From an uncultured Dehalococcoidia bacterium (lineage in GTDB: Bacteria; Chloroflexota; Dehalococcoidia; Lucifugimonadales; UBA3495), in the NCBI GenBank assembly GCA_958296445.1, contig OY282565.1, forward strand, positions 2,589,570 to 2,653,569: 64,000 nt of DNA, read 5' to 3'. The position numbers were made by a program, and so were the translations under genes. Below, piece after piece: positions 846-64,000 of the stretch; positions within the stretch are counted from its first letter, which is position 1; each line of letters starts with the position of its first letter. The notes below the pieces were generated by a model. That model did not search any database. It had not been told where the DNA came from and saw only the letters and a program-made list of their open reading frames with translations.

Positions 846-1402
846 GCGGTAAACCAGAGCGGTTCAAGGCCGGGGCGGTGGTTCCTGCCTGGTAGCACCT
901 GCATTTTACCGCTACCGGATGATGATATTCAAATAGCTGACGGCGTAGGTAAAGATGGGGGTTCCGGCGCAGTTTGCGCCGGGCCATGCCATCCCTGCTC
1001 AGAGTTGGCATTTATGCTACGAATTTCGCAAACCTGCTCTGTATGCGAAATCAGGCAGCCCGGCGGCTGGATTCGTCTTCGTCGCGAGTAGCGGAATTTT
1101 CTCTCCCCGGGCAACCCCCTTTGCCACCCTGAACACCCTCTACTATCCTGGGCAACCCTGGGCAACCTCTTTTGCCACCCTGAACACCCTCTACTATCCT
1201 GGGCAACTCCCTTTGTCACCCTGAGCAAAGCGAAGGGTCTCACCGCCCAAGCCGGAATTCTTCGCTTTGCTCAAAACGTCGGCGCTGAACAGCCAGCCGA
1301 GTAATTTCGCAATTTCTCTGGTTCCCCCCGCGCCTTCCCCCCAACACCCATCCAGGCTATAATCCCCGCAAACAAAACCACCCCAGCCCCGCGAGGCCAC
1401 CT

Positions 1403-2146
1403 ATGACCACCAGAACCTTCCCCGTAAGCCAGTCAGTACGCCGCACCCCCCACCCTTTCCCCGACCCACCGCCAAAGGAAGACCTGAACGACTACCTCTT
1501 TCTAACCGAACCGGGCTACGCACGCGCTCTGGTAAGGCATTACGGCAACCGCGACACCACCGCCGTTATGGCCGGTATCTACGTCTCCCAAACCCAGACA
1601 GAGCTGCTCTATCCCGACCTGCTCATAGCTTTCGATATTGACCGCGAAGCCATCATAGCCCGCAAAGGATTCGTCATTGACGAACAAGGCAAGCCCCCCG
1701 ATTTCGTGCTGGAAATAGGTTCGGACGCCACGGGAGACCGGGATGTAATAGACAAGCGTGCCGGATACGCCAACCTAGGCATCCCGGAATACTGGCGGTT
1801 CGACCCCTCCGGCGGCCTGTATCACCGGGGCGCGGCCCTAGCCGGCGACCGCCTAGTAAACGCCCAATACGAACCCATCCCCATCCACCAAACCGACGAC
1901 GGAAACCACCAAGGCTACAGCCCCGCCCTAAACCTAGAACTCCGCTGGGAAAACGGCCAACTCCTATGGTACAACCCAACAGCCCAACGCTACCTGCTCA
2001 ACCTAGACGAAGAAGGCGACGCCCGAATCGCCGCCGAAACCCAGCGCGACATCGCCCAAGCCCAACTCCACACCGCCCAAGCCCGCATCCGCATCCGCCA
2101 ACTCGAAGAACAGCTACGCCGCCACCAAAACCCCAACCCGCCATAA
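1403..2146 (+). CDS. Uma2 family (DUF820) restriction-endonuclease-like protein
   Basis: 247 aa with ...YPDLLIAFDIDRE...KPPDFVLEIGSDATGDRDVIDKRAGYANLGIPEYWRFDPSG..., the PD-(D/E)xK core pattern typical of Uma2/DUF820 proteins. GAGG lies 8 nt before the ATG. Confidence 0.85.
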   Translation: MTTRTFPVSQSVRRTPHPFPDPPPKEDLNDYLFLTEPGYARALVRHYGNRDTTAVMAGIYVSQTQTELLYPDLLIAFDIDREAIIARKGFVIDEQGKPPDFVLEIGSDATGDRDVIDKRAGYANLGIPEYWRFDPSGGLYHRGAALAGDRLVNAQYEPIPIHQTDDGNHQGYSPALNLELRWENGQLLWYNPTAQRYLLNLDEEGDARIAAETQRDIAQAQLHTAQARIRIRQLEEQLRRHQNPNPP

Positions 2147-2237
2147 CCCAAATAGAAACGCCGAGCATCTATCCGCCAATGATATAATCAAAACCAAAGC
2201 CCCGCCCCCCCGAATCCCCACCCCCCCGGAGGCCGCC

Positions 2238-3467
2238 ATGCAACCCCTAGCCGGTATCCGCGTCCTAAGCGTAACCGTCTACCTAGCCGGCCCCTTCGCC
2301 GCCATGAACCTAGCCCGACTAGGCGCCGAAGTCATCAAAATCGAAATCCCCGGCCGCGGCGACCCGGTGCGCGGCAACGGCCCCTTCGCCGGCCCCGAAG
2401 GCACCCACCCCCGCAGCAACTCCAACGACGACCTGTCAACCCGATTCCTCAAACGCACCCAAGGCGTCAAAAGCGTCACCCTAGACCTGAAACACCCCCA
2501 AGGCAAAGACCTTTTCCTCCAACTCGCCCAAAAAAGCGACGTAGTCCTAGAAAACCTAGCCCCCGGCTCCCTCCGCCGCGCCGGGCTAGGCTACGAAGCA
2601 GTCGCCGCCGTCAACCCCGCCATCGTCTACGCCTCCATTTCCGGCTACGGACAGACCGGCCCCTACAAAGACAAACCCGCCCACGACCCCCAGATTCAAG
2701 GCATGAGCGGCCTTATGGACATCAACGGCGACGCCGACGGCCCCCCCGTCAAAGTAGGCTTCTACATCGGCGACCTAGTAACCCCAATGTTCGCCTGCTA
2801 CTCCATCCTCGCCGCCCTCCGCGAAAAAGACCGCACCGGCCAAGGCCAGTACCTAGACGTCTCTATGATGGACACCCTAGTATCCCTGATGTTTATGGAA
2901 AACCTAGAAGAAAGCATCGAAGCCGGCCTCCCCCTGCGCACCGGCAACATCAGCCGCAGCGGCCCCACCGGACTCTACGCCGCCATCGGCGGCGACATCT
3001 CCATCACCGTCACCAGCGACGACCAGTGGCGCCGCATGAGCAACGCCCTCCAATCCCCCGAACTCCTCCAAGACCCCCGCTTCGACACCTACGTAAGCCG
3101 CACCGACAACGTAGAAGCTGCCCGCCAAGAAATCCAAAACCGCATCGGCCTTATGACCATCGAGGCCGCCCTAGAACGCCTAGAAAGCCACGACGTCCCC
3201 TGCGCCCCGGTTCGCACCGCCGAACAGGTAATGAACGACCCCCACTTCTGGGAACGCGGCAGCCTAGCCCCAATGCGCCACTCCGCAATGCCCGAGCCGG
3301 TAGCCGGAGCCATAGCCGCCGGCTTCCCCGTCCGCTTCTCCGGCGGCGAACTCCCCCCGCTACCCGGCGCCCCAACCCTAGGAATGCACAACAACGAAAT
3401 CCTATCCGGCATCCTCGGCCTAACCAGCACCCAACTAGCCGAACTATCAACCCAAGGCGTAATATAA
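2238..3467 (+). CDS. CaiB/BaiF family (class III) CoA-transferase, paralog 1
   Basis: 409 aa. N-terminus LAGIRVLSVTVYLAGPFAAMNLARLGAEVIKIEIPGRGDPVRG and ...ENLAPGSLRRAGLGYEAVAAVNPAIVYASISGYGQTGPY... are hallmark family III motifs. GGAGG RBS 7 nt upstream. Confidence 0.9.
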   Translation: MQPLAGIRVLSVTVYLAGPFAAMNLARLGAEVIKIEIPGRGDPVRGNGPFAGPEGTHPRSNSNDDLSTRFLKRTQGVKSVTLDLKHPQGKDLFLQLAQKSDVVLENLAPGSLRRAGLGYEAVAAVNPAIVYASISGYGQTGPYKDKPAHDPQIQGMSGLMDINGDADGPPVKVGFYIGDLVTPMFACYSILAALREKDRTGQGQYLDVSMMDTLVSLMFMENLEESIEAGLPLRTGNISRSGPTGLYAAIGGDISITVTSDDQWRRMSNALQSPELLQDPRFDTYVSRTDNVEAARQEIQNRIGLMTIEAALERLESHDVPCAPVRTAEQVMNDPHFWERGSLAPMRHSAMPEPVAGAIAAGFPVRFSGGELPPLPGAPTLGMHNNEILSGILGLTSTQLAELSTQGVI

Positions 3468-3651
3468 GCGTCACCCCCGCCACGCACCGCCCACCCAGCC
3501 ACTCCGCCCGCACCTTACCATCCCAACACACCCCGTCATTCCCGCCCGGCACACCCCGCCATCCCGCCCCACCCCGTCATTCCCGCGAAAGCGGGAATCC
3601 AGAAGCACACAGCAAGCATCCAACTTTCCCGAAAGCAAGGGCCTTATGGAT

Positions 3652-3790
3652 GAGAAAATTGCGAAATTACTTCCGCCGCCTGTAACCCTGAGCAAGCCGT
3701 CTGTCATTCTGAGCAAAGCGAAGAATCTCACCTTGGGCGGTGAGACCTTTCCCTTAGCTCAGGGTGCCAAAAGGAAATTTCGCAATTTCC
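3652..3790 (+). repeat. complete copy of MITE-like hairpin repeat, family A
   Basis: Left end GAAAATTGCGAAATT (3654-3668) is the inverted complement of right end GAAATTTCGCAATTTC (3774-3789). The interior is CTGTCATTCTGAGCAAAGCGAAGAATCTCACC-TTGGGC-GGTGAGACCTTTCCCTTAGCTCAG, an imperfect long hairpin. About 30 cores of this family occur in the window. Confidence 0.8.
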
Positions 3791-3876
3791 CCTACGGATT
3801 TCCCCCCTTTCAAGGTAATATCGGAATAAAATTCGGAAACCCCAAAACCCAATCCTTAACCCACGGAGAACCACCC

Positions 3877-4779
3877 GTGAAATTCAAGGCCAAACCCATC
3901 CGCACCGAACTATTCGTCCCCGGCAACAAAGAAGACTGGATGCGCAAAGCCCCCCGCTACCGGGCCGACGCCCTGATTCTAGACCTAGAAGACTCCGTCC
4001 CCCCGGAGCAGAAACCCGCCGCCCGCCAGTCCGTAGCCCAAATGGTGCCGGAACTAGGCGAAGCCAACCAGACCATCGTAGTCCGGGTCAACCGCCTAGA
4101 AACCGGACTCACCGGCAACGACCTAGAAGCCATCGTAGGCCCCCATCTCTACTGCGTCCTGCTCCCCAAAGTAGAGGGCCCCGCCGACGTGGTCGAAGTG
4201 GACACCCTCCTGCGCCACTTCGAGCGCGAAAAAGGGCTGGAAATAGGCCGCATATTCATAGACCCCGCCCTAGAAACCGCCTCCGGCATCCGCCAATCTT
4301 GGGAAATCGCCAACGCCTCCCCCCGCGTCGCCCACATGGGCGCCAGCGGCGGCAAAGGGGGCGACACCGCCCGCTCCATAGGTTTCCAATGGACCCCCCA
4401 GGGCATAGAAACCCTGTTCCTGCGCTCCAAAGTCCTCGTAGACGTCCGCGCCGCCGGCATCCCCTACCCAATGAGCGGCGGCTGGATGGACATTCACGAC
4501 CTAGACGGACTCCAAGCCTCCGCCCGCCAGGCCAAACAGTTAGGCTACACCGGAATGCACCTGATCCACCCCTCCCACGTCCCCGTAGTAAACCGAGTAT
4601 TCACCCCCACCGCCGAAGAAGTAGCCCACTACCAAGGACTCATCGAAGCAATGGAAACCCGCCGTTCCGAAGGCGGCGCAGCCGTAACCTTCGGCGGCGA
4701 TATGGTAGACATAGCCCACGAAGAAACCGCCCGAGAAATGCTCGCAATAGCCCGCGAAATGGGAGTAGAAGGCGCATGA
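3877..4779 (+). CDS. HpcH/HpaI aldolase / citrate lyase beta-subunit-like (CitE family) acyl-CoA lyase
   Basis: Track ORF 3646..4779, but its first 77 codons are translated family A repeat (VILSKAKNLTLGGETFPLAQG). An in-frame GTG at 3877 is preceded by GGAGA. Product VKFKAKPIRTELFVPGNKEDWMRKAPRYRADALILDLEDSVPPEQK... carries the typical CitE/malyl-CoA lyase N-terminal motif. Confidence 0.85.
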   Translation: MKFKAKPIRTELFVPGNKEDWMRKAPRYRADALILDLEDSVPPEQKPAARQSVAQMVPELGEANQTIVVRVNRLETGLTGNDLEAIVGPHLYCVLLPKVEGPADVVEVDTLLRHFEREKGLEIGRIFIDPALETASGIRQSWEIANASPRVAHMGASGGKGGDTARSIGFQWTPQGIETLFLRSKVLVDVRAAGIPYPMSGGWMDIHDLDGLQASARQAKQLGYTGMHLIHPSHVPVVNRVFTPTAEEVAHYQGLIEAMETRRSEGGAAVTFGGDMVDIAHEETAREMLAIAREMGVEGA

Positions 4780-4839
4780 CTAATTCTTAATTGTTTCCAT
4801 ACCAGTTCGGAGAGTCAGTATTTTCAGAGGGAGGATACC

Positions 4840-5319
4840 ATGCCACTTAATGACGTGGTGGATGCCATTCGACACGCCAGGATGATTATAAGGGATCACC
4901 GGGAAAGTGTCCTCACAAGCGAAACATCCACCCGGTACGCCATTATCGACCCTATCCTACGGGCGTTAGGTTGGCAAATTCACAACCCAAGGCAGTGTGA
5001 AGTCTCGTACCAGATCGGACAACAAGGCTTTGTAGATTACGCTCTGTTCAACAGAAATGGGGAGCCGATCGTACTGATAGAGGCCAAAAACCTGGGGATT
5101 AACCCAGTTAATAACGAGGAGCAACTATCCAATTATGCATCAGGGATGCGCAGTGGACTAGCTGTCCTGACCAATGGGCAGGCGTGGCTTTTGTATAACA
5201 TGAGCAAGCGCGGCGCGTTTGGCAACAAATACGCTGACACGGTGGATATTTACGAAGGTGATCGCAGACAAGCCGCGCAGAGGCTGAATCGATGGCTTCG
5301 GAAACTTACATGGTGGTGA
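4840..5319 (+). CDS. HsdR-N-terminal-domain-like (type I restriction enzyme R N-terminus-like) stand-alone protein
   Basis: 159 aa. ...SETSTRYAIIDPILRALGW...GFVDYALFNRNGEPIVLIEAKNLG... resembles the HSDR_N / PD-(D/E)xK-like module. GGGAGGA RBS. Base composition is clearly different from the neighbours (see findings). Confidence 0.6.
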   Translation: MPLNDVVDAIRHARMIIRDHRESVLTSETSTRYAIIDPILRALGWQIHNPRQCEVSYQIGQQGFVDYALFNRNGEPIVLIEAKNLGINPVNNEEQLSNYASGMRSGLAVLTNGQAWLLYNMSKRGAFGNKYADTVDIYEGDRRQAAQRLNRWLRKLTWW

Positions 5320-5329
5320 ATCCCAGCCC

Positions 5330-6208
5330 ATGAAAGAAAGTATGAATGAAGTACCTGGGGCTGACATTTCGCGCTGGCTCCCAATACAAGGCTGCGTAAA
5401 CTTCCGCGACCTAGGCGGCTACCCCAACCGCCAAGGCCAAACCGTCCGCTGGCGCCGCCTATACCGCAGCGACGCCCTACAGGACTTAACCCCCCAAGAC
5501 GCCGCCTACGCCACCCAAGACCTCGACATCGGCCTAATAGTAGACCTACGCAACTCCGACGAAGCCCAGCGCGACGGAATCGGCCCCCTGCCCCAACAAG
5601 GCGCAAAATACCAACACTTCCCCCTACTGCAAGAACGCGGATTCCCCCCCTTCACCGGCAGCGACGTAGTAGAACGCCTGTCATCCACCTACCTATGGCT
5701 GCTACACAACTCCGGCCCCCGCATAGCCAACGCCATAACCGCCATAGCCAACTCCCTAAACCCCAACCACGCCCAAGAACCAACCGCCCCAGACTCCGCC
5801 AACCCCAACCCCAACCCCGACCCGGCCCAAGAACCAACCGCCGCAACCCCCGCCGCCGCCAACCCCAACCCAGCCCAACGACGCGCCGTAGTATTCCATT
5901 GCAGCGCCGGCAAAGACCGCACCGGCCTACTAGCCGCCCTAATCCTAGAAATCCTAGACGTCGACCCCCAAACCATCACCGCCGACTACCTACTAACCAA
6001 CCAAGCAGTAGACGGAATCCTGCGCCGCATCCAGGCAATGCAACCCAACGCCAACCCCACCACCCAATCCCTAGCCGCCCAACCCGCCGCCTTCCAAGCC
6101 TTCCAAAACACCCTGCGCCAGCAATACAACAACGCCGAATCCTACCTACAACACCACGGCGCAACCCCCCAAACCCTCCAAACCCTACGCCGCAACCTAC
6201 TAGAGTAG
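5330..6208 (+). CDS. tyrosine-protein phosphatase family protein (Y_phosphatase3-like)
   Basis: 292 aa with VNFRDLGGY...RLYRSDAL near the N-terminus and the CX5R active-site loop VVFHCSAGKDRTG. It contains an internal P/N/A/T-rich insert (nt about 5755-5885). Confidence 0.8.
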   Translation: MKESMNEVPGADISRWLPIQGCVNFRDLGGYPNRQGQTVRWRRLYRSDALQDLTPQDAAYATQDLDIGLIVDLRNSDEAQRDGIGPLPQQGAKYQHFPLLQERGFPPFTGSDVVERLSSTYLWLLHNSGPRIANAITAIANSLNPNHAQEPTAPDSANPNPNPDPAQEPTAATPAAANPNPAQRRAVVFHCSAGKDRTGLLAALILEILDVDPQTITADYLLTNQAVDGILRRIQAMQPNANPTTQSLAAQPAAFQAFQNTLRQQYNNAESYLQHHGATPQTLQTLRRNLLE

Positions 6209-6301
6209 CCCAACAAAACAAAAACATATAAAATCTCGGCGCCCTCTGCGCGTACTCTGCGCCCTCTGCGTTAAAAAATCTCCAATGCCGGAAACGACAA
6301 T

Positions 6302-7069
6302 ATGCCCAACTACATCCTAGTCCACGGCTCCGCCCACGGCTCCTGGTGCTGGCAGCGAATAACCCCCCTGCTCCAGCAACAAGGCCACACCGTAACCCCC
6401 GTTGACCTCCCCGGCAACGGACACGACGACACCCCCCTAGCCCAAGTAACCCTAGACACCTACGCCCAACACCTGTGCCGCATACTCGACGCCCACGACA
6501 ACCCCTCCATCCTAGTAGGCCACAGCCTAGGCGGCCTGTCCATCAGCCGCGCCGCCGAACTCCGCCCCCACAAAGTAGCGGTTCTAGTCTACCTAACCGC
6601 CCTGCTACTAGAAGCCAACGGCGCATTCGTCCCTACCCAATCCGCCAACCCCGACCAAGTGCGCCAAGCCCTAGAAACCCGCCCCGGTTGGAACATAGCC
6701 GACGACCTAACCTACGTAACCTACAAACCCGAACTAGCCCCCCATCGCTTCTACAACGACTGCTCCCCCGCCGACACAGCCTGGGCCCAATCAATGCTAG
6801 TCCCCCAGCCCGTAGGCCCCCTGATTTCCCCCCTGACCATCACCAACGACAACTACGGGCGCGTCCCCCGCGTATACATAGAATGTGCCCATGACAACGC
6901 CGTAACCCCGGAACGCGCCCGCGAAATGTACACCGCCCTACCTTGCGCCCAAATCATAACCATGCAAACCGGCCACTCCCCCTTCCTGTCCGCCCCCAAC
7001 CAACTAGCCCGCCACCTAAACACCCTATCCCCCTACGCCACCCCGGCGGCGGAAAGCAGGCCACTATGA
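6302..7069 (+). CDS. alpha/beta hydrolase (methylesterase/SABP2-like)
   Basis: 255 aa. ILVHGSAHGSWCWQRI... and the nucleophile elbow LVGHSLGG. The stop overlaps the next start (ATGA at 7066-7069). Confidence 0.85.
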   Translation: MPNYILVHGSAHGSWCWQRITPLLQQQGHTVTPVDLPGNGHDDTPLAQVTLDTYAQHLCRILDAHDNPSILVGHSLGGLSISRAAELRPHKVAVLVYLTALLLEANGAFVPTQSANPDQVRQALETRPGWNIADDLTYVTYKPELAPHRFYNDCSPADTAWAQSMLVPQPVGPLISPLTITNDNYGRVPRVYIECAHDNAVTPERAREMYTALPCAQIITMQTGHSPFLSAPNQLARHLNTLSPYATPAAESRPL

Positions 7070-8397
7070 CCTACGGACTCCTAAACGGCCTCCGCGTCCT
7101 AGAGCTGGGCGAATTCATCTCCGCCCCCTACTGCGCCAAGCTGCTTGCCGATATGGGCGCCCAAGTCCTGAAAATCGAGCGCCCCACCGGCGACTGGGCC
7201 CGCGACTACGGCCCATACCCCAACGACCTCCCCCACCGGGAACACAGCGGAATGTTCCTCTACCTAAACGCCAACAAACGCGGCATCACCCTAAACCTAG
7301 ACACCCCCACCGGACGCGAAATTTTCGCCAACCTGCTATCCCGTTTCGACGTCCTAGTTCACAACATCCACCCCACCGAAATGGCCCGCATCGGCCTGGA
7401 CTACCAAACCCTGTGCCACGCCCCCCCGCCGTCCCGCCCCAAAGACGGGCTAATAATGGCCTCCATAACCCCCTTCGGCCTAACCGGCCCCTACCGCAAC
7501 TGGAAAGCCTACGACATCAACCTAGCCGCCGGCGGCGGCATCTGCGAAGGCTTAGGCAGCCCCGACCGCGAACCCCTAACCTTCGGCGCCCCCGAAGTAG
7601 GCTACTTCGCCGGCGCCGCCGCCGCCTCATCCATAATAATGGCCCTGCTCGCCAACCCAGACGGCGCCGAACAAGGCCAGCACATAGACATCGCCGAAAT
7701 CGAAACAATGGCCGGCCTCTACAACGGCCCCGAAGCGTTAATGGCCGTCTACCAATGGCGCGTCACCCGCCGCACCGGACATCACGCCCTAGACTTCCCC
7801 TACCCCAACTGCATCCTACGCTGCAAAGACGGCTACATATTCGTAGGCTCCCCCGAAGGCCGCCAATGGCGCCGCCTCCTAGAGCTGATGGGCAACCCCC
7901 AATGGGCCCAAGACCCCCGCTTCCGCAACCGAACCACAATAAACAACCAATACGCCGACGAAGCAGACGCCCACCTAGAGGAATGGCTGCAACAACACAC
8001 CAAAGCCCAACTCCTAGACCTAGCCCTACAACACCGCATCCCCCTAGCCCCCGTCCGCGGCTTCAACGAAGTCCGCAACGACCCCAGCCTAACCACCCAA
8101 TTCACCCAAACCCCCACCCCCAACGCCAACCCGGAAACCGCCAACCCCAACCTAACCTCCCAATCCGCCGAAACCGCCAACCCCATAACCATCCCCGGCC
8201 CGCCCTACCAACTATCAACCCCCACCCCCACCCACCCCGGCCCAGCCGAAGGCGATGCCCCATCCGAACACCCCGAAACCCCCAACCCACCCCAACCCGC
8301 CCCAACCCTAGGCCAACACAACACCGAAATCTACACCGCCGAACTAGGCTACACCCCCCAAGAAGTAGCCCAACTATACCGCGCCGGAATTATCTAA
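7066..8397 (+). CDS. CaiB/BaiF family CoA-transferase, paralog 2
   Basis: Track ORF 6943..8397. The homologous sequence begins at the in-frame ATG 7066: MTYGLLNGLRVLELGEFISAPYCAKLLADMGAQVLKIERPTGD. It carries a P/T/N-rich insert near the C-terminus (nt about 8098-8310) before the conserved ...APTLGQHN... motif. Confidence 0.9.
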   Translation: MTYGLLNGLRVLELGEFISAPYCAKLLADMGAQVLKIERPTGDWARDYGPYPNDLPHREHSGMFLYLNANKRGITLNLDTPTGREIFANLLSRFDVLVHNIHPTEMARIGLDYQTLCHAPPPSRPKDGLIMASITPFGLTGPYRNWKAYDINLAAGGGICEGLGSPDREPLTFGAPEVGYFAGAAAASSIIMALLANPDGAEQGQHIDIAEIETMAGLYNGPEALMAVYQWRVTRRTGHHALDFPYPNCILRCKDGYIFVGSPEGRQWRRLLELMGNPQWAQDPRFRNRTTINNQYADEADAHLEEWLQQHTKAQLLDLALQHRIPLAPVRGFNEVRNDPSLTTQFTQTPTPNANPETANPNLTSQSAETANPITIPGPPYQLSTPTPTHPGPAEGDAPSEHPETPNPPQPAPTLGQHNTEIYTAELGYTPQEVAQLYRAGII

Positions 8398-8826
8398 CCG
8401 ATTGCCCCTAACCGCCCGTCATTCTGAGCAAAGCGAAGAATCCCACCCTAAGCCGCCAAACCCTCCCCAACCCGTAGGGGCGCACAGCCGTGCGCCCCCC
8501 CAACGCAATCAACCACCCCCCTTATCCCCAACACCAAGGGCGCCAAAGCCGCCCACCACCCCAACCAAATATACGTCACCCTGAGCAACCCCCCTGTCAC
8601 CCTGAGCACCCCCCCTGTCATTCTGAGCAAAGCGAAGAATCCCACCTTGGGCCGCCAGACCCTTTCCCCTAGCCCAAAGTGTCAAAGGCCCAGGACAACA
8701 AAGCCACACGGCCCCAAAAAGAAATCCCCCAACCACCCCATTCCCCCTCAAACTAAGGTATACTAAACCCCCGCCAAAAAAACCAACGCCCCCGTCGGCC
8801 CCATCCCATCCCCGGAGGTCCCCCCA

Positions 8827-10801: not shown

Positions 10802-10824
10802 CCCCCCCACCCACCAACCCTCCC

Positions 10825-13135: not shown

Positions 13136-13138
13136 TCC

Positions 13139-13550: not shown

Positions 13551-13571
13551 AACGGCAGCAGGTGAATTACT

Positions 13572-52817: not shown

Positions 52818-52820
52818 TCG

Positions 52821-56440: not shown

Positions 56441-56472
56441 GCCCCAACGACCCTGGAGCGCAACCCACGCTT

Positions 56473-57402
56473 ATGAAAGGCTACACAATCAGACGCCTAG
56501 GCCGCGGCCTGATAACCGTATGGCTGGTCACCCTGGCCGTCTTTTTCCTCTTGCGCTTCACCGGCAACCCCATTGACTACCTAGCCAACCCCAGCATAAC
56601 CGTAGACGACCGCGAGCGTATGAAACGCGAGTTCGGCCTAGACCAACCCTGGCACATCCAATATCTACTGTTCAACAAAGGCATATTCACCGGCAATTTC
56701 GGCGTCTCCGTCCGCTGGTCCGGCAACGAAGCCTTCGACGTTTTCAAGTCGCGCGTAATGGCGACCGTTCAGTTAGTCGGCGTCGCCCTAGCCTTCTCTA
56801 TGACCCTCGGCCTACTGCTCGGCGTAATATCCGCCGCCTACCCCGACTCCCCCTTAGACCGGATAGGCAAGCTGGTTGCCATCACCGGCCAGGCAATGCC
56901 CGCCTTCTGGCTTGGCCTGCTCTTCATACTCCTGTTCTCCATCTGGCTAGGCTGGCTGCCCAGCGCCGGCGGACTGGACCGCGTAGGCTGGAAGGGCATC
57001 ATAATGCCGTCGGTGTCCCTAGGCTGGTTCCTTGTCGCCGCCAATATGCGGCTGGCCCGCTCTTCTATGCTCGAAGTAATGGATTCCGAATACATCAAAA
57101 TGCTGCGGGCCAAAGGGCTGCCCCGGCGAATCATCATCTGGAAACACGCCCTAAGAAACGCCTCCCTGCCCGTGATAACCCTGTTCGGCGTAAATCTCGC
57201 CCTGCTGGTCGGCGGAGCCCTAGTCACCGAGCAGATTTTCGCTTGGCCGGGCATCGGCTTGCTACTGGTAGACGCCATCCTGGCCCGCGACTATGCCGTA
57301 GTGCAAACGGTGGTTTTCTTTTCCGCCATCGTAATCGTGCTAACCAACATAATCATTGACCTAGCCTGCGCCTGGCTCGACCCCAGAGTGCGGCTGGCCT
57401 AG
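56473..57402 (+). CDS. ABC transporter permease (DppB/OppB-like)
   Basis: 309 aa. MKGYTIRRLGRGLITVWLVTLAVFFLLRFTGNP..., ...MDSEYIKMLRAKGLPRRIIIWKHALRNAS... Confidence 0.9.
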   Translation: MKGYTIRRLGRGLITVWLVTLAVFFLLRFTGNPIDYLANPSITVDDRERMKREFGLDQPWHIQYLLFNKGIFTGNFGVSVRWSGNEAFDVFKSRVMATVQLVGVALAFSMTLGLLLGVISAAYPDSPLDRIGKLVAITGQAMPAFWLGLLFILLFSIWLGWLPSAGGLDRVGWKGIIMPSVSLGWFLVAANMRLARSSMLEVMDSEYIKMLRAKGLPRRIIIWKHALRNASLPVITLFGVNLALLVGGALVTEQIFAWPGIGLLLVDAILARDYAVVQTVVFFSAIVIVLTNIIIDLACAWLDPRVRLA

Positions 57403-57411
57403 AGGGGCGCA

Positions 57412-58311
57412 ATGGCAACCCGCGGCAAGGCCGACATCATCGAAAGGGGCAAGCCGGAGTTCCGGGCGCTGTGGCGGCGTCGGCTCTCCCACCTGGCCTA
57501 TACCTTCCGCGGCGCCCCCAAATTCTCCCTGTTTTTCTTGACCCTAACCATAATCTGCGCCATAACCGCCCCCCTCCTGCCCTTCGACCCGGTGCGGGGC
57601 GACTTGTCCAACCCGCTACAGCCCCCGGCCTGGGGGTCGCACCCCCTAGGCACTGACCACCAAGGCCGCGATATGGTGGTGCGCCTGATTCACGGCGCCA
57701 ACATATCCGTAACCGTCGGATTCCTAGCCGTATTCGTCTCCGGCGCCGCCGGAACCCTCATCGCCGTCCTGTCCGGCGTATTCAAGGGCTGGGTAGACGG
57801 CCTCCTGATGCAGCTTACCGACGCCTTTATGGCCCTCCCCTTCCTGATGGTGGCGGTAGCCGTAGTTTCCCTCCTAGGCCCCAGCAAAACCAACGTCATC
57901 CTAGTTCTGGGCCTCCTACGCTGGATGAGCTACGCCCGCATCCTCAGAAGCGAAGTGCTGTCCGTCACCGAAACCGACTACGTCCGCCTGGCCCGCGTGG
58001 CCGGCGCCAGCAACTGGCGCATCATCCTCCGCCACGTCCTGCCCAACCTATCCAACACCCTGCTCATCATAAGCACCCTCGAACTCGGCACCGTCATCAT
58101 CTTCGAGTCGGCCCTCAGCTTCCTCGGCCTCGGCGTCCCCCGCCCCCTACCGTCTTGGGGAACAATGCTTGCCGACTCCCAAAGCTATATCTACAATCAA
58201 TGGTGGCTCCCCGTACTCCCCGGAGTAGCGATTTCCCTCCTAGTAATGTCCACCAACCTAACCGGCGACTGGCTAAGAGAGCGCGTAGACCCCACCCGCC
58301 GCCAGCTCTAG
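57412..58311 (+). CDS. ABC transporter permease (DppC/OppC-like)
   Basis: 299 aa. ...HPLGTDHQGRDMVVRLIHGANIS..., ...TDYVRLARVAGASNWRIILRHVLPN... Confidence 0.9.
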   Translation: MATRGKADIIERGKPEFRALWRRRLSHLAYTFRGAPKFSLFFLTLTIICAITAPLLPFDPVRGDLSNPLQPPAWGSHPLGTDHQGRDMVVRLIHGANISVTVGFLAVFVSGAAGTLIAVLSGVFKGWVDGLLMQLTDAFMALPFLMVAVAVVSLLGPSKTNVILVLGLLRWMSYARILRSEVLSVTETDYVRLARVAGASNWRIILRHVLPNLSNTLLIISTLELGTVIIFESALSFLGLGVPRPLPSWGTMLADSQSYIYNQWWLPVLPGVAISLLVMSTNLTGDWLRERVDPTRRQL

Positions 58312-58399
58312 AGCGTTCCCCAACCAAAACCGAATCCCAACCCTTACGTCCTGCCCGCCGCCAAAAGCCAAAAAAATCCGCCCGCAAAAGGAGAAAACA

Positions 58400-59113
58400 A
58401 TGACCCAAGACGCCGAAACCGCCAACAAATTCAGCGGCGTAATGAAAAGCCTCCCCGAATTCGACCTCTCCCCCCAAGACACCGCCTTCATCATCGTAGA
58501 TATGCAATACCTCGACGCCCACCGCGATTACGGCATCGGAGCCGAAGCCAAAACCCTAGGAACCGCCGAGGACTTCGACTATTTCTTCAGCCGCATCGAA
58601 AACCTGCTGATTCCCCACATCCGGCAGATGCAGGCCGCCTGCCGTGAGAAAGGCGTCGAAGTAATCTTCCTCCGCATCGCCTCCCTAGTCAACGACTGCC
58701 GCGACGTAAGCCCGATTCACAAACGCCTAAAGCTCTTCGCCCCGGCCAACTCCAAAGAAGCCGAAATCCTAGAGGAAATCCGGCCCCTCGACAACGAAAT
58801 CGTCATCACCAAAGGCTGCTCCGGCGCTTTCAACGGCACCAACCTAGACCAGATCCTAGCCAATATGGGCCTCAAGAACCTCATATTCTGCGGCGTAGCC
58901 ACCAACTACTGCGTCGAAACCTCCGTAAGAGACGCCGGCGACCGCGACTACAACGTAATCCTGCTCCACGACGCCTCCGCCGGCTTCACCCAAGAACAAG
59001 ACGAAATGGCCTTCAAGGTTCTCAACGAAACCTACGCCAAAGTAAAGTCCACCAACGAAGTCCTAACCCAAATACGCAACCTAAACCCAACAAAAAACCC
59101 AGCCGCCGTCTAA
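58400..59113 (+). CDS. isochorismatase-family cysteine hydrolase
   Basis: 237 aa. ...DTAFIIVDMQYLD..., ...VITKGCSGAFNGTNLDQIL...LIFCGVATNYCVETSVRDA... AAGGAG RBS. Confidence 0.85.
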   Translation: MTQDAETANKFSGVMKSLPEFDLSPQDTAFIIVDMQYLDAHRDYGIGAEAKTLGTAEDFDYFFSRIENLLIPHIRQMQAACREKGVEVIFLRIASLVNDCRDVSPIHKRLKLFAPANSKEAEILEEIRPLDNEIVITKGCSGAFNGTNLDQILANMGLKNLIFCGVATNYCVETSVRDAGDRDYNVILLHDASAGFTQEQDEMAFKVLNETYAKVKSTNEVLTQIRNLNPTKNPAAV

Positions 59114-59149
59114 CCCCCGCCCGCCCCGCCCCCGCCGCATAGCGCCGGA

Positions 59150-59845
59150 CAAAAGGCAATGTCGCAATCCCCCCAGAACTCGCCGGATTAAAGGGGCCCG
59201 TCACTCTAAGCAAAAGTCTGTCATTCTGAGCAAAGCGAAGAATCTCACCTTGGGCAGTGAGACTCCCCCGCAACGCGCCAGGCAAATGTAGGGGCGCACA
59301 GCCGTGCGCCCTATCCCCGGCGATCCCCTCCGCAGAACTCGCTGGATTATCAAAATCCCCCCATCCTGAAAATCCTCTAATCCCGAAAATCCTGATTCAG
59401 ACAACCCCCCCAAAAACCAACCACCCATCCCCCCCTTCCCCAAGAACGACGAAACCGGCCGCCCCCCCCACCCGCCCGCACCGCGCCGGGCAAAAGGGAA
59501 TGTCGCAATTCCCTCAAAACTCGCTGGATTAAAGGGCTCTATCACTCTGAGCAAAGCTCTGCCACCCTGAGCAAAGCTCTGTCACTCTAACCAAAAGTCT
59601 GTCATTCTGAGCAAAGCGAAGAATCTCACCTTGGGCACTGAGACCCCCCGCATCGCGCAGGGCAACAGTAGGGGCGCACAGCCGTGCGCCCCGTCCCCGG
59701 CGATCCCCTCCGCAGAACTCGCTGGATTATCAAAATCCCCCCATCCTGAAAATCCTCTAATCCCGAAAATCCTGATTCAGACAACCCCCCCAAAAACCAA
59801 CCACCCATCCCCCCCTTCCCCAAGAACGACGAAACCAACCGCCCC
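59150..59845 (+). repeat. about 381-bp composite repeat block, two tandem copies (families A + B + C)
   Basis: CTGTCATTCTGAGCAAAGCGAAGAATCTCACC occurs at 59218 and 59599. Both copies continue through GTAGGGGCGCACAGCCGTGCGCCC and AATCCTCTAATCCCGAAAATCCTGATTCAGACAA with near identity. Confidence 0.85.
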
Positions 59846-59854
59846 ACCCGCCAC

Positions 59855-60268
59855 CTACCCCCGCCGCCCACAACCCCAAAGCCAAAGCCCCACCGACAGC
59901 GTCACCACCACAAACAAAGTATCCACCAACCCCCAATCCAGCGACGGCGGCGCATTACCCCGCAAGCCCACGAACCAGTTATTCAGATACGCCATACCCA
60001 GCCCCAAAGAACCGTAAAAGCGCATATTCACCGACAGCCAAGCCTGCCACCCCACGCTTTCCCGCCCCTCGCCCCGCTGCCGCCACCACCCCCACGCGCT
60101 CGCGCCCAAAGCGATGACCACCGACGCGCCCATCGGCCAGTTAAACACGCTCCAAATCGGAAACCCCGAACTCCCGTCGTGATACAGCGGCGTAATCACA
60201 TAATGAACCCACACCGCCAAAGCCATCACCACCAGATACCCCGAAAAAACCCGCAAAACCACGCCCAT
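59855..60268 (-). CDS. hypothetical membrane protein (4 TM), paralog 1
   Basis: Track ORF ends at 60295. ATG 60268 lies 8 nt after GGAGGG. MGVVLRVFSGYLVVMALAVWVHYVITPLYHDGSSGFPIW... Confidence 0.6.
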   Translation of the reverse strand: MGVVLRVFSGYLVVMALAVWVHYVITPLYHDGSSGFPIWSVFNWPMGASVVIALGASAWGWWRQRGEGRESVGWQAWLSVNMRFYGSLGLGMAYLNNWFVGLRGNAPPSLDWGLVDTLFVVVTLSVGLWLWGCGRRG

Positions 60269-60320
60269 AAAGCCAACCCTCCATCCAAAAATCATCCCAA
60301 AACTACCCGCGCCGCGCCCA

Positions 60321-60773
60321 TCACCCCAGCCCGCGCCGCCGCGAAATCCGCCACAAATCCGCCCCGCACGAAAGCATCACCCCCACAAACACGATATTCA
60401 CCAACCCCCACTCCAAAGCCGGCTCCGGCCCCATCAAATCCGCAAACCAGTTATTAAAAAACCCCAGCGCCAACGCCACCGACGCATAAAAACGCACATT
60501 CACCCACCCCCGCCAACCCACCCCCGCGCCTTCCGCCCCGCCGCCACGACTACCGCCGCCACTGCCACCGTCACCGCCCCCCTGCCGCGCCCACCCCCAC
60601 CCGCTCGCCGCCAGCGCAACAACAACCGCAACCGCCATCGGCCAATTCAACGCCGTCCAAACCGGAAACCCCGTGCTGCCATCGTCATACAGCGGCGTAA
60701 TCGCATAATGAACCCCCACCGCCAAACCCATCACCACTAGATACGCCGAAAAAACCCGCAACCCCGCCCCCAT
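60321..60773 (-). CDS. hypothetical membrane protein (4 TM), paralog 2
   Basis: Track ORF ends at 60896. ATG 60773 was chosen by alignment with paralog 1 (MGAGLRVFSAYLVVMGLAVGVHYAITPLYDDGSTGFPVW...). It carries a G-rich insert GGGDGGSGGGSRGGGAEGAG that paralog 1 lacks. Confidence 0.55.
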   Translation of the reverse strand: MGAGLRVFSAYLVVMGLAVGVHYAITPLYDDGSTGFPVWTALNWPMAVAVVVALAASGWGWARQGGGDGGSGGGSRGGGAEGAGVGWRGWVNVRFYASVALALGFFNNWFADLMGPEPALEWGLVNIVFVGVMLSCGADLWRISRRRGLG

Positions 60774-60875
60774 AAAATCACCCCCCATCCAATTGCGCGA
60801 TCCCCAGTCTACCAATACACTCCCCCAAAATCCCACAACCCCCGCAACCATCCCAACCCAAAACCGGAGCAAACT

Positions 60876-63402
60876 ATGACCGGCGAAAACCCCCAACCCC
60901 CCGCCCCCTTCCGGCTAGTCGAAGCCACCATCGCCCAGCTCCACGCCGCCATCCAATCCGGCCAAACCACCTGCGCCGCCGTAGTCCAGGAATACCTAAC
61001 CCGCGCCCGCGCCTACAACGGCGTAGCCAGCATCCTAGTCACCCAAGACGGCCGCCCCGTCCCCCCCGCCCCCGGCGCCATCCGCGCCCAGGCCCCCATC
61101 CAATTCCCCACAGAAACCGTCAAAGCCTCCGAAATCCTCCCCGACCTCGACCAATACCAAGGCCCGCCCCTAGAATTCGGACGAATGGAACCCACCGCCT
61201 CCGACCCCCAAGTCCACCAACAGTTCGGAATGATAACCGGCATCCCCCCCGGCCGCCTCCCCGGCCCGCCCCAGCTAAACGCCCTAGCCACCTTCAACAT
61301 CCGCGGCGAGCGTTCCGTAACCTGCCGCGGCGACTTCGACCGCCACCCCGCCCTAGGCCCCCTGCCCCCCGCCGCCCCGCCCGTCTGCGAGCACTTCCGC
61401 CACTACCCCGACGCCCTAGAACGCGCCGCCCAACTAGACGCCGCCTACGGCCCCAACCCCGACCTCCAAACAATGCCAATGTACGGCGTAGTCTTCAGCT
61501 TCAAAGACCCCTTCGACACCAAAGATATGCGCTCCACCGGCGGAGCCGACGCCGCCTACGACATCGACTTCCCCGCCCGCGACCACATCCTAGTCCAACA
61601 TTTGCGCGACAAAGGCGCCATCATATTCGCCAAAGCCGTCAACACCGAATACAACGGACGCGCCGGCGACCCCGGCGGCCGCCACGCCCCCGGCAAAATC
61701 CTCCCCTCAGTCCTCGGCTACCAGCGCAGTACCTGGAGCGGCAACCCCGCCAACGTATACGACCCCACCCGCGCCGCCTCCCTAGGCTCCAGCTCCGGCT
61801 CCGCCGTATCCGTAAGCGCCAACCTAGTAATGGCAAGCCTAGGCGAGGAAACCCGCGCCTCCACCCGCGGCCCCTCCAACCACAACGCCATAGCCCTCAT
61901 CCTCCCCCACAAAGCAATGATTCCCTTCAGCGGCGGCGCCATCGGAGCCGACATCTACTGCGACCGAACCGGCATCCTCGCCCGCCGCCTAACCGACTGC
62001 GCCCAAATCCTAGACGCCCTCAAAGACCCCGAAACCGGCTACTACGACCCCCGCGACCCCTTCACCACCGTACCCCGCGCCTCCATCCACGCCGCCCCCT
62101 ACGCCCCCCACGCCCAAGCGTCCGGCCAGCCCAACTCCCTGCGCGGCGTCCGCATCGGCGTAATCCGCGAATCAATGGCCTACCACCCCAACTCCAAAGC
62201 CGAGGAACCCATAGTAACCGCCGCCGCCCGCGAAATAAACCAAATCCTAGCCGGAAAACTAGGCGCAACCCTAGTCGAATCCTCCGACCCCCTATGGCCC
62301 CCCGACCCCAACGCCGAACCCATGCAAACCGACTTCCGCCGCGCCCTAGCCATCCTAACCCCGGTCTTTATGCCCGACCTCCTCTTCCGCCTAGACGACC
62401 ACGGCCAACCCCTGTTCCCCGAATTTGCCGACGCCATAACCCCCACCGAATTTGCCCCCGGCAAAACCTTCGGCTCCGGCAAAATCGCCCCCATTGACTA
62501 TATGGTAGAACTGGCCGAAGGGCGCATCCAACCCGCCGCCAACCTAGACCTGCCCACCGTCCAGCAACAGGAACTCGCAATGTCCTTCCGCTACCACATC
62601 CGCCAGTACCTGACCCGCCGCGCCGCCGACTGGCAAAACCTAGGCTTCACCGAATCCCTAACCGACTGGCCCGCCCTCAACGCCCGCTCCAAATTCTGGG
62701 GCGACGACCAACGCGCCGCCTTCCGCAACTGGCAGGAAATAACCGACCCCCGCAACCCCCTAACCGGACGCCAAGGCGTCCCGGAACGCATAATGCTACG
62801 CGAACTCCTCCGCCGCGTAGAAACGCATAATGCTCCGCGAACTCCGCCGCCGCGTAGATATGATGGTACTCTACGAAAACCGCCTAGACGCCCTAGTCCG
62901 CCTCCACACCCCCTACCCCCCCGCCAAAATCGGCCACGCCCACCACCCCGGCACATCCCAAAACATCCGCCTAGAATCCTTCAACGGCCCCAACGCCGGC
63001 CTAACCGAAATCCTAATCCCCGCCGGCTACATCCAAACCGCCTACGACCCCACCTTCCGCCTCCCCCCACCGCCCCCCACACCCCACCCCAACCCAACAC
63101 CCCCCGCCACCTCCCAACCCCATCCGACACCGCCCGCTACATCCCAACCCCATCCGACACCCCCACCCCCCTGCCCCAACCCGGTGCCGCCCACTACATC
63201 ACCCCATCCCACGCCACCCCCCACACCCCCGCCCCATCCCAACTCCATCCGACACCCCCACCCCTCTGCCCCAACCCGGCCTGCCCTTCTCCCTAGTCTT
63301 CCGCGCCGACCCCGGCCGCGAACCCGCCCTCCTCCAAATAGCTGCCGCCTACGAAGCCGCCACCCACCGCCGCATCCCCCCACCAAACTACACCCCCCTC
63401 TA
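60876..63402 (+). pseudogene. amidase-signature family amidase, frame disrupted by short tandem duplications
   Basis: The N-terminal 640 codons are a good amidase (...FSFKDPFDTKDM..., ...ASLGSSSGSAVSVSANL...). A 37-bp tandem duplication (62785-62821 / 62822-62858) shifts the frame. The sequence continues in frame +1 (MLRELRRRVDMMVLYENRLDALVRLHTPYPPAKIG...AYDPTFRL). The conserved C-terminus ...GLPFSLVFRADPGREPALLQIAAAYEAATHRRIPPPNYTPL-stop (ending at 63402) is in the third frame, after a 95-bp duplication. Confidence 0.6.
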
Positions 63403-63412
63403 ACCCACCCCC

Positions 63413-63690
63413 CGTCCCCCGTAGGGGCGCACAGCCGTGCGCCCCCACCCCCGCAAACACGTCCGAACACCAACAAAAAACCACAAACCACCCCCGCCGC
63501 CCCCCGTACCGTAGGGGCGCACAGCCGTGCGCCCCCACCCCCGCAAACACATCCGACCACCAACAAAAAACCACAAAACCACCCCCGCCGCACCCCGTAC
63601 CGTAGGGGCGCACAGCCGTGCGCCCTCACCCCCGCAAACACGTCCGACCACCAACAAAAAACCACAACCCCACCCCCACCGCCCATCACC
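63413..63690 (+). repeat. 90/91-bp tandem repeat, 3 copies, built on the family B hairpin with a second type of flank
   Basis: GTAGGGGCGCACAGCCGTGCGCCC occurs at 63421, 63511 and 63602, each followed by ACCCCCGCAAACACGTCCGACCACCAACAAAAAACCACAA... A further dispersed copy is at 63889. Confidence 0.85.
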
Positions 63691-64000
63691 CCAAGCAAGC
63701 TGCCTGTCACCCTAAGCAAGCCGTCTATCATTCCGAGCAAAGCAAAGACGCCGTGGGCAGCAAGACCCTCCCCCTAGCTCAGGCCGCCAAAAAGGAATCC
63801 CGCAATTCTCCCCAAGAATACCTGAACCGGCCAACAAAGGAACGCGGCCAACCCCAACACGCGCCGACCCCACCCCACACCGCCCCCCGTAGGGGCGCAC
63901 AGCCGTGCGCCCCCGCAAACACGTCCGACCACCAACAAAAAACCCCAACCCCACCCCCGCCGCCGATCATTCCAAGCAAACCGCCCGTCACAAGCAAAGG

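What the first reader, a model, noticed from the sequence alone, without database searches (positions are those of the whole stretch)
1205..63810. All interspersed repeat families are co-oriented with the C-rich strand regardless of flanking gene direction
Every family A core I could find (about 30) reads CTGTCATTCTGAGC...GAAGAAT on the + strand. Examples are 3700, 8410, 13470, 17640-18280, 25960, 32070, 33470, 35580, 38410, 38580, 44280, 45755, 46915, 52195, 52365, 56145-56370, 59225, 59605 and 63730. This includes copies inside the minus-strand operons (38400-38600, 46800-46950, 52190-52400). The only reverse-complement match (1262-1281) is the right arm of one copy. Four other families also appear in one orientation only: family C (AATCCTGAAAATCCTGATTCAGACA), family D (CTCTGCGCCATTGCG...TTAAA), family F (GTCATTCCCGCGAAAGCGGGAATCC) and the flank of family B. 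Insertion that is random with respect to strand would give a mix. A strict bias relative to the replication strand is what is known for single-strand-DNA (HUH/Y1, IS200/IS605 and REP/RAYT-type) mobilisation at the replication fork. The elements are hairpin-rich, as those systems require.
Basis: partly seen in the sequence, partly recalled or inferred. Interest (0 to 1): 0.65.

Follow-up and report, generated by a model that had tools for sequence, protein, structure and literature searches.

The report
Co-oriented REP hairpins on skewed chromosome
Short hairpin-forming mobile repeats in this Chloroflexota chromosome nearly all point the same way, whatever direction the neighbouring genes face, and they sit in DNA whose two strands have very different base compositions, so both features probably reflect how this chromosome is copied.

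Summary
The family A core has 24 exact 25-mers, all on the + strand. By locus, 18 point + and 1 points - (p about 8e-5). Families B (22/22), C (6/6) and F (2/2) are also all +. This includes three loci inside minus-strand operons.

The repeats are REP-type hairpins. A and F are TGTC/CGTC-tagged and B is GTAG-tagged. Family A is the left arm of a 120-150 nt MITE-like palindrome with about 20-nt terminal inverted repeats and 7-10 bp flanking duplications. One strain polymorphism shows a clean empty site. Many copies are tandem duplicates.

The HUH/ssDNA reading is only partly supported. The polarity is large-scale: the same orientation is seen 1.4 Mb away on a sister-genome contig, and 30 of 32 independent loci in four regions have the tagged strand on the C-richer strand. 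But target duplications and inverted ends are not HUH hallmarks. No Y1/RAYT gene was seen. One weakly skewed region holds both orientations.

An unexpected finding is the skew itself. Four-fold sites are 69% C, 11% G, 17% A and 3% T, regardless of gene direction. The skew is lineage-specific and mosaic with sharp borders, and is driven mainly by G-to-C and G-to-A changes.

The parts
1091..1319 (-). Family A element with an inverted internal hairpin. The ACCCT-type REP is on +, and the AGAAT-type arm is reverse-complemented at 1257-1272. This is the only exception to the + rule.
   Evidence: nhmmer scores 76.7 bits on - and 24.9 on +. Sequence. Conserved in the sister strain.
3650..3795 (+). 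Full-length family A MITE-like element: TIR GAGAAAATTGCGAAATTACTTCC, one half-REP unit, REP core, loop, degenerate right arm, TIR GGAAATTTCGCAATTT. Flanked by TATGGAT and TACGGAT.
   Evidence: 100% identical in the sister strain.
3573..3603 (+). Family F: CGTC + ATTCCCGC + GAAA + GCGGGAAT + CCA, a textbook CGTC-1 REP.
   Evidence: Sequence. Family definition from PMC3733652.
8410..8690 (+). Family A cores at 8416 and 8615, with family B at 8473. The sister strain has 5 tandem A+B composite units here.
10808..11807 (+). Tandem array of nine 67-68 nt units, each with a GTAG-tagged REP (family B), followed by A cores at 11587 and 11719. Much shorter in the sister strain.
13133..13547 (+). Array of 19-21 nt half-REP units ending in a family A core at 13461, plus right arm and tail.
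17475..18366 (+). Largest family A array, with 6 full cores, many decayed half-REP units, and B copies at 17693 and 18330.
20657..20833 (+). Half-REP array and a variant family A core.
25938..26010 (+). Family A copy.
32020..32159 (+). Full-length family A element with both TIRs.
33400..33557 (+). Full-length family A element, flanked by GGCCCTTTC and GGCCTTTCC.
35546..35653 (+). Family A copy between convergent genes.
38405..38640 (+). Two family A copies inside a minus-strand ABC-transporter operon, between the SBP gene 38670-40526 and the permease gene 36758-37675.
44242..44364 (+). Family A element flanked by the identical 10-mer CCCCCAGCCA.
45729..45840 (+). Family A copy between convergent genes.
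46849..46964 (+). Family A copy between two minus-strand permease genes.
47995..48019 (+). Family F copy between two minus-strand genes.
52179..52527 (+). Two family A copies and two family C copies in a divergent intergenic region.
56054..56427 (+). Family A array with three full copies and eight half-REP units, between a plus-strand SBP gene and a permease gene.
59213..59783 (+). Two composite units, each A followed by B then C.
63404..63912 (+). Four family B copies and a decayed family A copy (63720-63809).
23147..23945 (+). B-C ... C-B repeats flanking a multicopy cassette of about 560 nt (23253-23815) that encodes a 111-aa protein of unknown function.
21865..22134 (+). Family D copies in tandem. 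Further copies at 27660, 27676, 30129 and 53887, all on +.
1..64000 (.). Domain of extreme strand asymmetry. The + strand is 40% C, 21% G, 24% A and 15% T. Four-fold sites are about 69% C, 11% G, 17% A and 3% T in genes of both orientations.

Best explanation
The repeats are REP-type hairpin modules and short satellites derived from them. Families A and F carry a TGTC/CGTC tag and family B a GTAG tag.

Family A is the left arm of a 120-150 nt MITE-like imperfect palindrome. It has about 20-nt terminal inverted repeats and is flanked by 7-10 bp target duplications. It therefore most likely enters double-stranded DNA through a staggered cut made by a transposase supplied in trans. That transposase is not in the window.

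Insertion is polar with respect to a large-scale asymmetry of the chromosome, most simply the direction of the replication fork. This is what is known for Tn7/TnsE and for IS families that dock on the beta clamp or on lagging-strand gaps. As a result the tagged strand ends up on the C-richer strand.

After insertion, copies are multiplied locally by slipped-strand tandem duplication. This preserves orientation and inflates the copy count. The 25-nt hairpin core is then kept by purifying selection.

Shown: the anatomy, the flanking duplications, the orientation statistics, independence from transcription, tandem amplification, and core constraint. Inferred: the link to replication, and the type of transposase.
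For: Orientation is 18 + to 1 - loci in the window. It is 4/4 with the same record polarity 1.4 Mb away on the sister contig, one of these in unskewed DNA. It is 5/5 at L121. At L122 it is 3 of 4 independent loci on the C-richer strand.

Three loci inside minus-strand operons keep the + orientation. At L121 three copies are antisense to plus-strand genes.

For TIRs and flanking repeats, the best 7-mer matches are 7, 7, 6, 6 and 5 of 7, against a 1.5% chance of 7/7. There is a clean 443-nt presence/absence with AGAGTAG duplicated.

Most differences between strains are changes in tandem copy number.

Cores show 0 changes in 175 orthologous nt, against 4.5% at four-fold sites. The small stem shows compensatory covariation across phyla.

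The 89%-identity relative already has intermediate skew but no family A copy in the syntenic region. So the repeats arrived in already asymmetric DNA.

Orientation bias with respect to replication is documented for many IS families, including DDE types (PMC3971601).
Against: No transposase and no parent IS with matching ends was found.

The flanking-repeat evidence rests on five elements and one polymorphism. That polymorphism could also be a precise deletion.

A bias near 95% is stronger than usual for IS families.

At L122 orientations are interleaved (3 + and 4 -, with three of the - copies riding on duplicated Uma2 genes).

Which strand is the leading strand is unresolved. Base skew says + is lagging. 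The 76% of genes plus the tRNA and tmRNA on + suggest it is leading.

No ori or ter crossing could be examined.
Confidence: 0.4

Rival explanations
1. The hairpins are moved as single strands by an HUH/Y1 enzyme (RAYT or IS200/IS605 TnpA) at the replication fork, so only one orientation can be inserted on each replichore.
For: Family B is a GTAG-tagged REP and is 22/22 on one strand. Each REP is a structurally constrained hairpin with compensatory stem changes. The polarity is strict and large-scale. Tandem REP arrays resemble BIME arrays, for which a TnpA(REP) rolling-circle-like amplification was proposed (PMC3333891). The signature of the extreme skew suggests one strand stays single-stranded for a long time.
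Against: Family A has inverted ends and variable 7-10 bp flanking duplications, and no fixed target tetranucleotide. No Y1_Tnp appears among the window ORFs scanned or the called genes of L114, L119, L121, L122 and L125. A tblastn with recalled RAYT and IS608 TnpA sequences found nothing, which is a weak test. CGTC-type REPs have no known transposase. Orientations are mixed at L122. If the G/T-rich strand is the exposed one, the tagged strands lie on the other strand.
Confidence: 0.2
2. Insertion is random, but only one orientation is retained. Either the hairpin works on one strand only, for example as a single-strand initiation or priming signal like the sso of rolling-circle plasmids. Or the other orientation is deleted more often on the exposed template strand.
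For: The REP core on the + strand is under constraint, while the right arm drifts at the neutral rate. In the one inverted copy it is again the + strand REP that is intact. Co-orientation is strictest in the extremely skewed domain and mixed in weakly skewed L122, where both arms are intact. The flanking direct repeats would allow precise excision. Orientation-dependent deletion of asymmetric palindromes on the lagging-strand template is established (own knowledge: Trinh and Sinden 1991).
Against: Canonical copies fold equally well on both strands, so there is no obvious asymmetry in hairpin stability. Repeat density is similar in skewed and unskewed loci. L121 and the unskewed part of L125 are also co-oriented. 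No functional data exist.
Confidence: 0.2
3. The bias has no biological polarity. It is a by-product of local amplification: tandem and segmental duplication, composite units moving together, and gene-linked copies spreading from a few founders.
For: Arrays differ between strains by whole tandem units. A+B and A+B+C composites recur. Uma2 genes carry an attached copy when they duplicate.
Against: Nineteen separate intergenic regions spread over 64 kb have different flanks and different flanking duplications. The same polarity is found 1.4 Mb away.
Confidence: 0.07

Closest known systems
CGTC-tagged and GTAG-tagged REPs, BIMEs and REPINs (Di Nocera 2013, PMC3733652; Ton-Hoang 2012, PMC3333891; Bertels and Rainey 2011)
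   Same: Family F fits CGTC-1 exactly: tag, 8-bp stem starting with AT, 4-nt loop, CCA tail. Family A has a TGTC/CGTC tag and a 9-position stem starting with AT. Family B is GTAG plus a palindrome. The units form head-to-head heterodimers inside longer palindromes, occur in tandem clusters, and lie in intergenic DNA.
   Different: Here only the REP on one strand is kept and its inverted partner decays. Orientation is almost uniform along the chromosome. The dimers sit in an element with inverted ends and target duplications. Tandem arrays of 19-21 nt half-REP units are present. No RAYT was seen.
MITEs mobilised in trans by DDE transposases (for example Correia elements of Neisseria)
   Same: Small (120-450 nt) and non-coding, with terminal inverted repeats, flanking target duplications, many copies, and presence/absence between strains.
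   Different: No parent IS is known. The interior is a REP heterodimer whose 25-nt core is identical in more than 100 genomes of many phyla. Orientation is far from random.
IS200/IS605 single-strand transposition at the fork (PMC5027513)
   Same: Hairpin-dependent elements with a strand-specific orientation tied to replication.
   Different: Those elements have no inverted ends and no target duplication. They insert 3' of a fixed tetra- or pentanucleotide and encode or need a Y1 TnpA. The first three features were tested here and are not met by family A.
Replication-linked orientation bias of IS families and Tn7/TnsE (PMC3971601; Tn7 from own knowledge)
   Same: DDE-type elements that make target duplications yet take a preferred orientation relative to the fork.
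   Different: The bias here is stronger (about 95%) and concerns non-autonomous REP-bearing elements. No clamp-binding transposase was identified.
Single-strand origins (sso) of rolling-circle plasmids and OriL of mitochondrial DNA (own knowledge)
   Same: Imperfect palindromes of 100-200 nt that work in one orientation only, on a strand that stays single-stranded. Mitochondrial DNA also shows an A+C-rich versus G+T-rich strand asymmetry.
   Different: There is no evidence that these elements prime DNA synthesis. This is a 4 Mb bacterial chromosome, and the mutational signature is dominated by G-to-C changes, not by deamination transitions.

Membership tests
IS200/IS605 or RAYT-mobilised (HUH, ssDNA) element | A Y1/HUH transposase gene in the genome, usually flanked by the repeats | tested here: inconclusive
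   None among the window ORFs scanned with Pfam or among the called genes of L114, L119, L121, L122 and L125. A tblastn with recalled sequences was negative. Only about 3% of the genome was seen.
IS200/IS605 or RAYT-mobilised (HUH, ssDNA) element | No terminal inverted repeats and no target-site duplication | tested here: not met
   Family A has TIRs of about 20 nt and variable 7-10 bp flanking direct repeats, and one exact empty site.
IS200/IS605 or RAYT-mobilised (HUH, ssDNA) element | Insertion 3' of a conserved tetra- or pentanucleotide target | tested here: not met
   The flanks differ: AGAGTAG, TATGGAT, CCCCCAGCCA, GGCCTTT, CTACATCC.
IS200/IS605 or RAYT-mobilised (HUH, ssDNA) element | Orientation switches with replication direction at ori and ter | not testable with these tools
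   The window genome is hidden from look-ups. Partial data: same polarity 1.4 Mb apart on one contig, and the tagged strand on the C-richer strand in 30 of 32 loci.
GTAG-tagged REP | Short palindrome with an unpaired 5' GTAG, in high copy number and intergenic | tested here: met
   Family B is GTAG-GGGCGCAC-AGCC-GTGCGCCC, with 22 copies.
CGTC-tagged REP (CGTC-1) | CGTC or TGTC tag, 8-9 bp stem starting with AT, 4-5 nt loop, CCA-like tail | tested here: met
   Family F is CGTC-ATTCCCGC-GAAA-GCGGGAAT-CCA. Family A has a TGTC/CGTC tag and the stem ATTCTGAGC/GCGAAGAAT with two G.A positions, a 3-nt loop and a CCC/CTC tail, so it is a variant.
REPIN/BIME (REP doublet) | Two REPs in inverted orientation that can form a long hairpin | tested here: met
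   Canonical copies at L121 and L122 have an ATTCT-type REP plus an inverted ACCCT-type REP, with folds of -22 to -30 kcal/mol. In the window the second REP has decayed.
MITE | Non-coding, under 500 nt, with TIRs, target duplication and multiple copies | tested here: met
MITE | A parent IS with matching ends that encodes the transposase | not tested

The most novel reading that the evidence does not exclude
Parts of this chromosome may be copied or repaired in a mitochondrion-like way. One strand would stay single-stranded and damaged for a long time, and its complement would be laid down by a bypass polymerase that inserts C about twice as often as A opposite uninformative sites. That would give the extreme, mosaic, strand-specific G-to-C and G-to-A drift. 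The co-oriented, sequence-constrained REP palindromes would then be either inserted into that single strand or kept as strand-specific initiation or processing signals for it.
Probability: 0.12. Interest if true: 0.9.

Novelty: new variant of a known kind. Interest (0 to 1): 0.62.

Why it matters
REPs and MITEs are usually treated as palindromic, orientation-free genome litter. Here the same elements are mixed in one part of a genome and 95% co-oriented in another, and only the hairpin on one strand is conserved. That makes their orientation a readable record of a strand-specific process.

The host DNA shows a strand asymmetry far beyond what I know for bacterial chromosomes. GC skew at four-fold sites is about -0.7, with sharp domain borders and a G-to-C-dominated signature. 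It arose within a lineage whose relatives at 84% protein identity are normal.

Together these give a testable handle on how replication or repair of one strand can reshape a bacterial genome, and on what propagates CGTC-type REPs, which have no known transposase.

Tried and rejected
1. I scanned genome contigs with the 25-mer core to recover the source genome.
2. I tested core strand against local GC skew across those phyla. There is no link (57 to 54).
3. The metagenome scan with a lineage-specific 25-mer found only 3 loci. One (L117) is skewed, with cores on the C-rich strand.
4. Exact-protein look-ups for the window genome are hidden.
5. A chimeric peptide translated from the repeats, meant to find repeat-derived ORFs elsewhere, gave one hit inside the known region.
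6. I looked for an association with GIY-YIG genes. Only 3 of 113 loci show one.
7. Rfam has no family for the hairpins.
8. tblastn with recalled RAYT and IS608 TnpA sequences found nothing.
9. The idea that co-orientation is only differential decay of one palindrome arm was rejected. The arms have 11 and 14 vulnerable bases, which cannot give 24 intact against 0. In addition, the cores are conserved between strains while the right arms drift.
10. The idea that one strand's hairpin is much more stable was rejected for canonical copies. Window copies do fold about 6 kcal/mol better on the - strand.
11. Transcription-linked orientation was rejected.
12. Deamination transitions as the main cause of the skew were rejected. 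G-to-C dominates.
Full report
**Observation.** The 14-mer CTGTCATTCTGAGC with up to 2 mismatches occurs 51 times, always on +, against 0.15 expected. The 25-mer GTCATTCTGAGCAAAGCGAAGAATC occurs 24 times exactly, all on +. Family B is 22/22 on +. Family C is 6/6 and family F 2/2. Family D is 7 + with one spurious - hit. Window self-BLAST gives 1464 direct and 30 inverted HSPs. The inverted ones are one element (1208-1286) and three pairs of gene paralogues. A profile built from canonical copies intergenic loci + and one -, p about 8e-5. The exception at 1208-1278 is a whole copy with an inverted internal hairpin, not merely a right arm.

**Gene context.** Pfam confirms the minus-strand genes: 27709-28218, 35685-37675, 38670-42460 and 45880-52149. 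Of the 19 family A loci:
- 12 lie between plus-strand genes and point +.
- One (1208-1278) lies upstream of a plus-strand gene and points -. Its left neighbour is cut by the window start.
- Two lie between convergent genes.
- One lies between divergent genes.
- Two lie between minus-strand genes.
- One is at the window end.

One family F copy also lies between minus-strand genes. The same SBP-permease operon type therefore carries the core in sense at 56 kb and in antisense at 38 kb and 47 kb. Orientation follows the DNA strand, not transcription.

**What the repeats are.** Each core is a small hairpin with a 5' tag. Family A reads TGTC/CGTC-ATTCTGAGC-AAA-GCGAAGAAT. Family F reads CGTC-ATTCCCGC-GAAA-GCGGGAAT-CCA. 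These match the CGTC-tagged REP superfamily, and family B (GTAG-GGGCGCAC-AGCC-GTGCGCCC) matches the GTAG-tagged one (PMC3733652).

Undecayed copies in a sister genome show the full family A element. It consists of:
- TIR GAGAAAATTGCGAAATTACTTCC
- optional half-REP units
- an ATTCT-type REP
- a loop
- an inverted ACCCT-type REP
- TIR GGAAATTTCGCAATTTTCT

This is a REP heterodimer inside a longer palindrome.

Five full-length elements are flanked by direct repeats of 7-10 bp that differ from copy to copy. Best 7-mer matches are 7, 7, 6, 6 and 5 of 7, where 7/7 has a 1.5% chance. One 443-nt element is present in the sister strain and exactly absent from the window at 6201/6202, with AGAGTAG duplicated.

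Most other strain differences are whole tandem units. For example, there is one A+B unit in the window where the sister has five.

The 25-nt core is not specific to this genome. These are usually long hairpins of the same architecture. Across those loci the 5-bp stem covaries: ATTCT/AGAAT, ATCCT/AGGAT, ACCCT/AGGGT and ATGTT/AACAT. In all, 150 of 160 units pair perfectly, against 112 for shuffled partners. No Rfam family matches.

**Host and skew.** The proteins place the window in Chloroflexota of the SAR202/Dehalococcoidia type, on a 4,000,658-bp contig. The + strand is 40% C, 21% G, 24% A and 15% T. Four-fold sites are C .685, G .105, A .171, T .039 in plus-strand genes. In minus-strand genes the coding strand shows the mirror image, so the asymmetry belongs to the strand and not to transcription.

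A 99%-identical sister assembly (L114, L119) shares the skew. A syntenic relative at 89% protein identity is intermediate and has no family A copy. Relatives at 84% or less are normal and lack the repeats. One of them, L115, shows the usual opposite sign, +0.15.

Polarised against that relative, G on the + strand became C 114 times and A 59 times, and was kept 20 times. T became C 22 times and A 9 times. C was kept 197 times. This is not a deamination-transition signature.

**Other regions of the species.** The skew is mosaic.
- On the sister's 2.318 Mb contig, 1.4 Mb from the window's homologue, genes are extremely skewed up to about 13.6 kb of locus L125. The next five genes have zero skew.
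- Two loci on the sister's 1.599 Mb contig have strand components of only +0.05 (L121) and -0.14 (L122). That contig's genes have orthologues of 93% or more on the window's contig.

Family A orientation in these regions:
- L125: 4/4 +, the same record polarity as L114, including one canonical copy in unskewed DNA.
- L121: 5/5 -. Three of these are antisense to plus-strand genes.
- L122: 3 + and 4 -, interleaved. Three of the - copies ride on duplicated Uma2 genes. Families C and F occur in both orientations, and both arms are intact.

Counting independent loci, 30 of 32 have the tagged strand on the C-richer strand. The skew at L121 is marginal, however. Unrelated strongly skewed contigs (L117, L060, L006) agree. 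Across phyla in general there is no link.

**Constraint.** Between the two strains, four-fold sites differ by 4.5%. The non-core parts of orthologous elements differ by about 4%. The cores show no change in 175 nt, where about 8 changes would be expected. Among window copies the right arms differ by 10-30%, while 24 of 30 cores are identical. In the one inverted copy it is again the REP on the + strand that is intact. Differential mutational decay cannot explain this, because the two arms have 11 and 14 vulnerable bases.

**Interpretation.** The co-orientation is a real, large-scale polarity. But the anatomy of family A points to a trans-mobilised MITE that cuts double-stranded DNA, not to HUH single-strand transposition. 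It has inverted ends, variable target duplications and no fixed target. Orientation bias relative to replication is known for DDE-type IS families too (PMC3971601).

An HUH route remains possible, especially for the GTAG-tagged family B, but no Y1 gene was seen in the 3% of the genome available. Selective retention of one orientation is a serious rival, because only one strand's REP is conserved. Which strand is leading is unresolved. Base skew says + is lagging, while gene, tRNA and tmRNA orientation says it is leading.

**Limits.**
- The ori/ter flip could not be tested.
- The assignment of the two sister contigs to one genome is an inference from sizes and orthology.
- The target-duplication evidence rests on few elements.

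Noticed in passing
window 1-64000 (also L114, L119): Extreme strand asymmetry that does not depend on gene direction. Four-fold sites are about 69% C, 11% G, 17% A and 3% T on the + strand. Per-gene four-fold GC skew runs from -0.45 to -1.0. I know of no bacterial chromosome with values this high.
   Followed up: partly
window genes compared with L115 and L124 (syntenic relatives): The skew arose by loss of G and T on the + strand. G-to-C (114) is more common than G-to-A (59), and T-to-C (22) more common than T-to-A (9). C is gained about twice as often as A. The same holds in a minus-strand gene. This is not the usual deamination pattern. The 89% relative is intermediate. The 84% relative has the normal opposite sign.
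   Followed up: partly
L125 about 13600-15300; L121; L122: The skew is mosaic within what appears to be one genome. There is a sharp switch from four-fold skew of about -0.9 to about 0 within 2 kb at L125, and two 21-kb loci on the other contig have little or no skew.
   Followed up: partly
window 4787-5371: A strain-specific 585-nt insertion, absent from the sister strain. It carries a 159-aa HSDR_N-like (PD-(D/E)XK) gene with normal, unskewed composition. It is newly arrived DNA inside the skewed domain.
   Followed up: partly
window 52713-53849; 28261-32019; 56473-58311: These genes have clearly weaker four-fold skew (-0.20, and -0.45 to -0.60) than their neighbours. They may be younger or imported segments.
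   Followed up: no
L001-L113: The exact 25-mer GTCATTCTGAGCAAAGCGAAGAATC occurs in more than 113 stretches from nearly all bacterial phyla. It usually forms one arm of a long hairpin whose other arm is a different stem variant.
   Followed up: partly
window 17500-17650, 56062-56140, 13133-13460; L121 2700-2960; L122 17270-17440: Tandem arrays of 19-21 nt half-REP units (tag plus 5' half of the stem plus a short linker) lie next to the full REP. They sit on both sides in unskewed copies and on the 5' side in the window. They decay away from the core and vary in number between strains. The same architecture is seen in Spirochaetes and other phyla. The mechanism is unknown.
   Followed up: partly
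window 23253-23815: A multicopy cassette of about 560 nt encodes a 111-aa protein with no Pfam match and has a TTGCCA-N17-TACAAT promoter-like site. There are 5 copies in the 4.0 Mb genome, at least 4 on the sister's 2.3 Mb contig and 1 on the 1.6 Mb contig. In the window it is flanked by family C and B repeats.
   Followed up: partly
window 42722-43178: A tRNA (42722-42794) and a tmRNA (42826-43178) lie on the + strand. Together with 76% of genes on the C-rich strand, this conflicts with the usual rule that the gene-rich leading strand is G-rich.
   Followed up: no
window 13572-16141: Three to four tandem paralogous modules of small ORFs (weak DUF2283 and gag-asp-protease-like matches). A related ORF lies at 26085-26441.
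   Followed up: no
L002 6290, L019 1499, L110 2166: Small GIY-YIG nuclease genes lie within 30-330 nt of the REP core in 3 of 113 loci from other phyla.
   Followed up: partly
L122 1215-5370 and 7958-10810; L121 9168-11784; window 1403-2146: Large tandem expansions of Uma2 (PF05685) nuclease-like genes, up to nine in 10 kb. Some duplicate together with an attached family A element.
   Followed up: no
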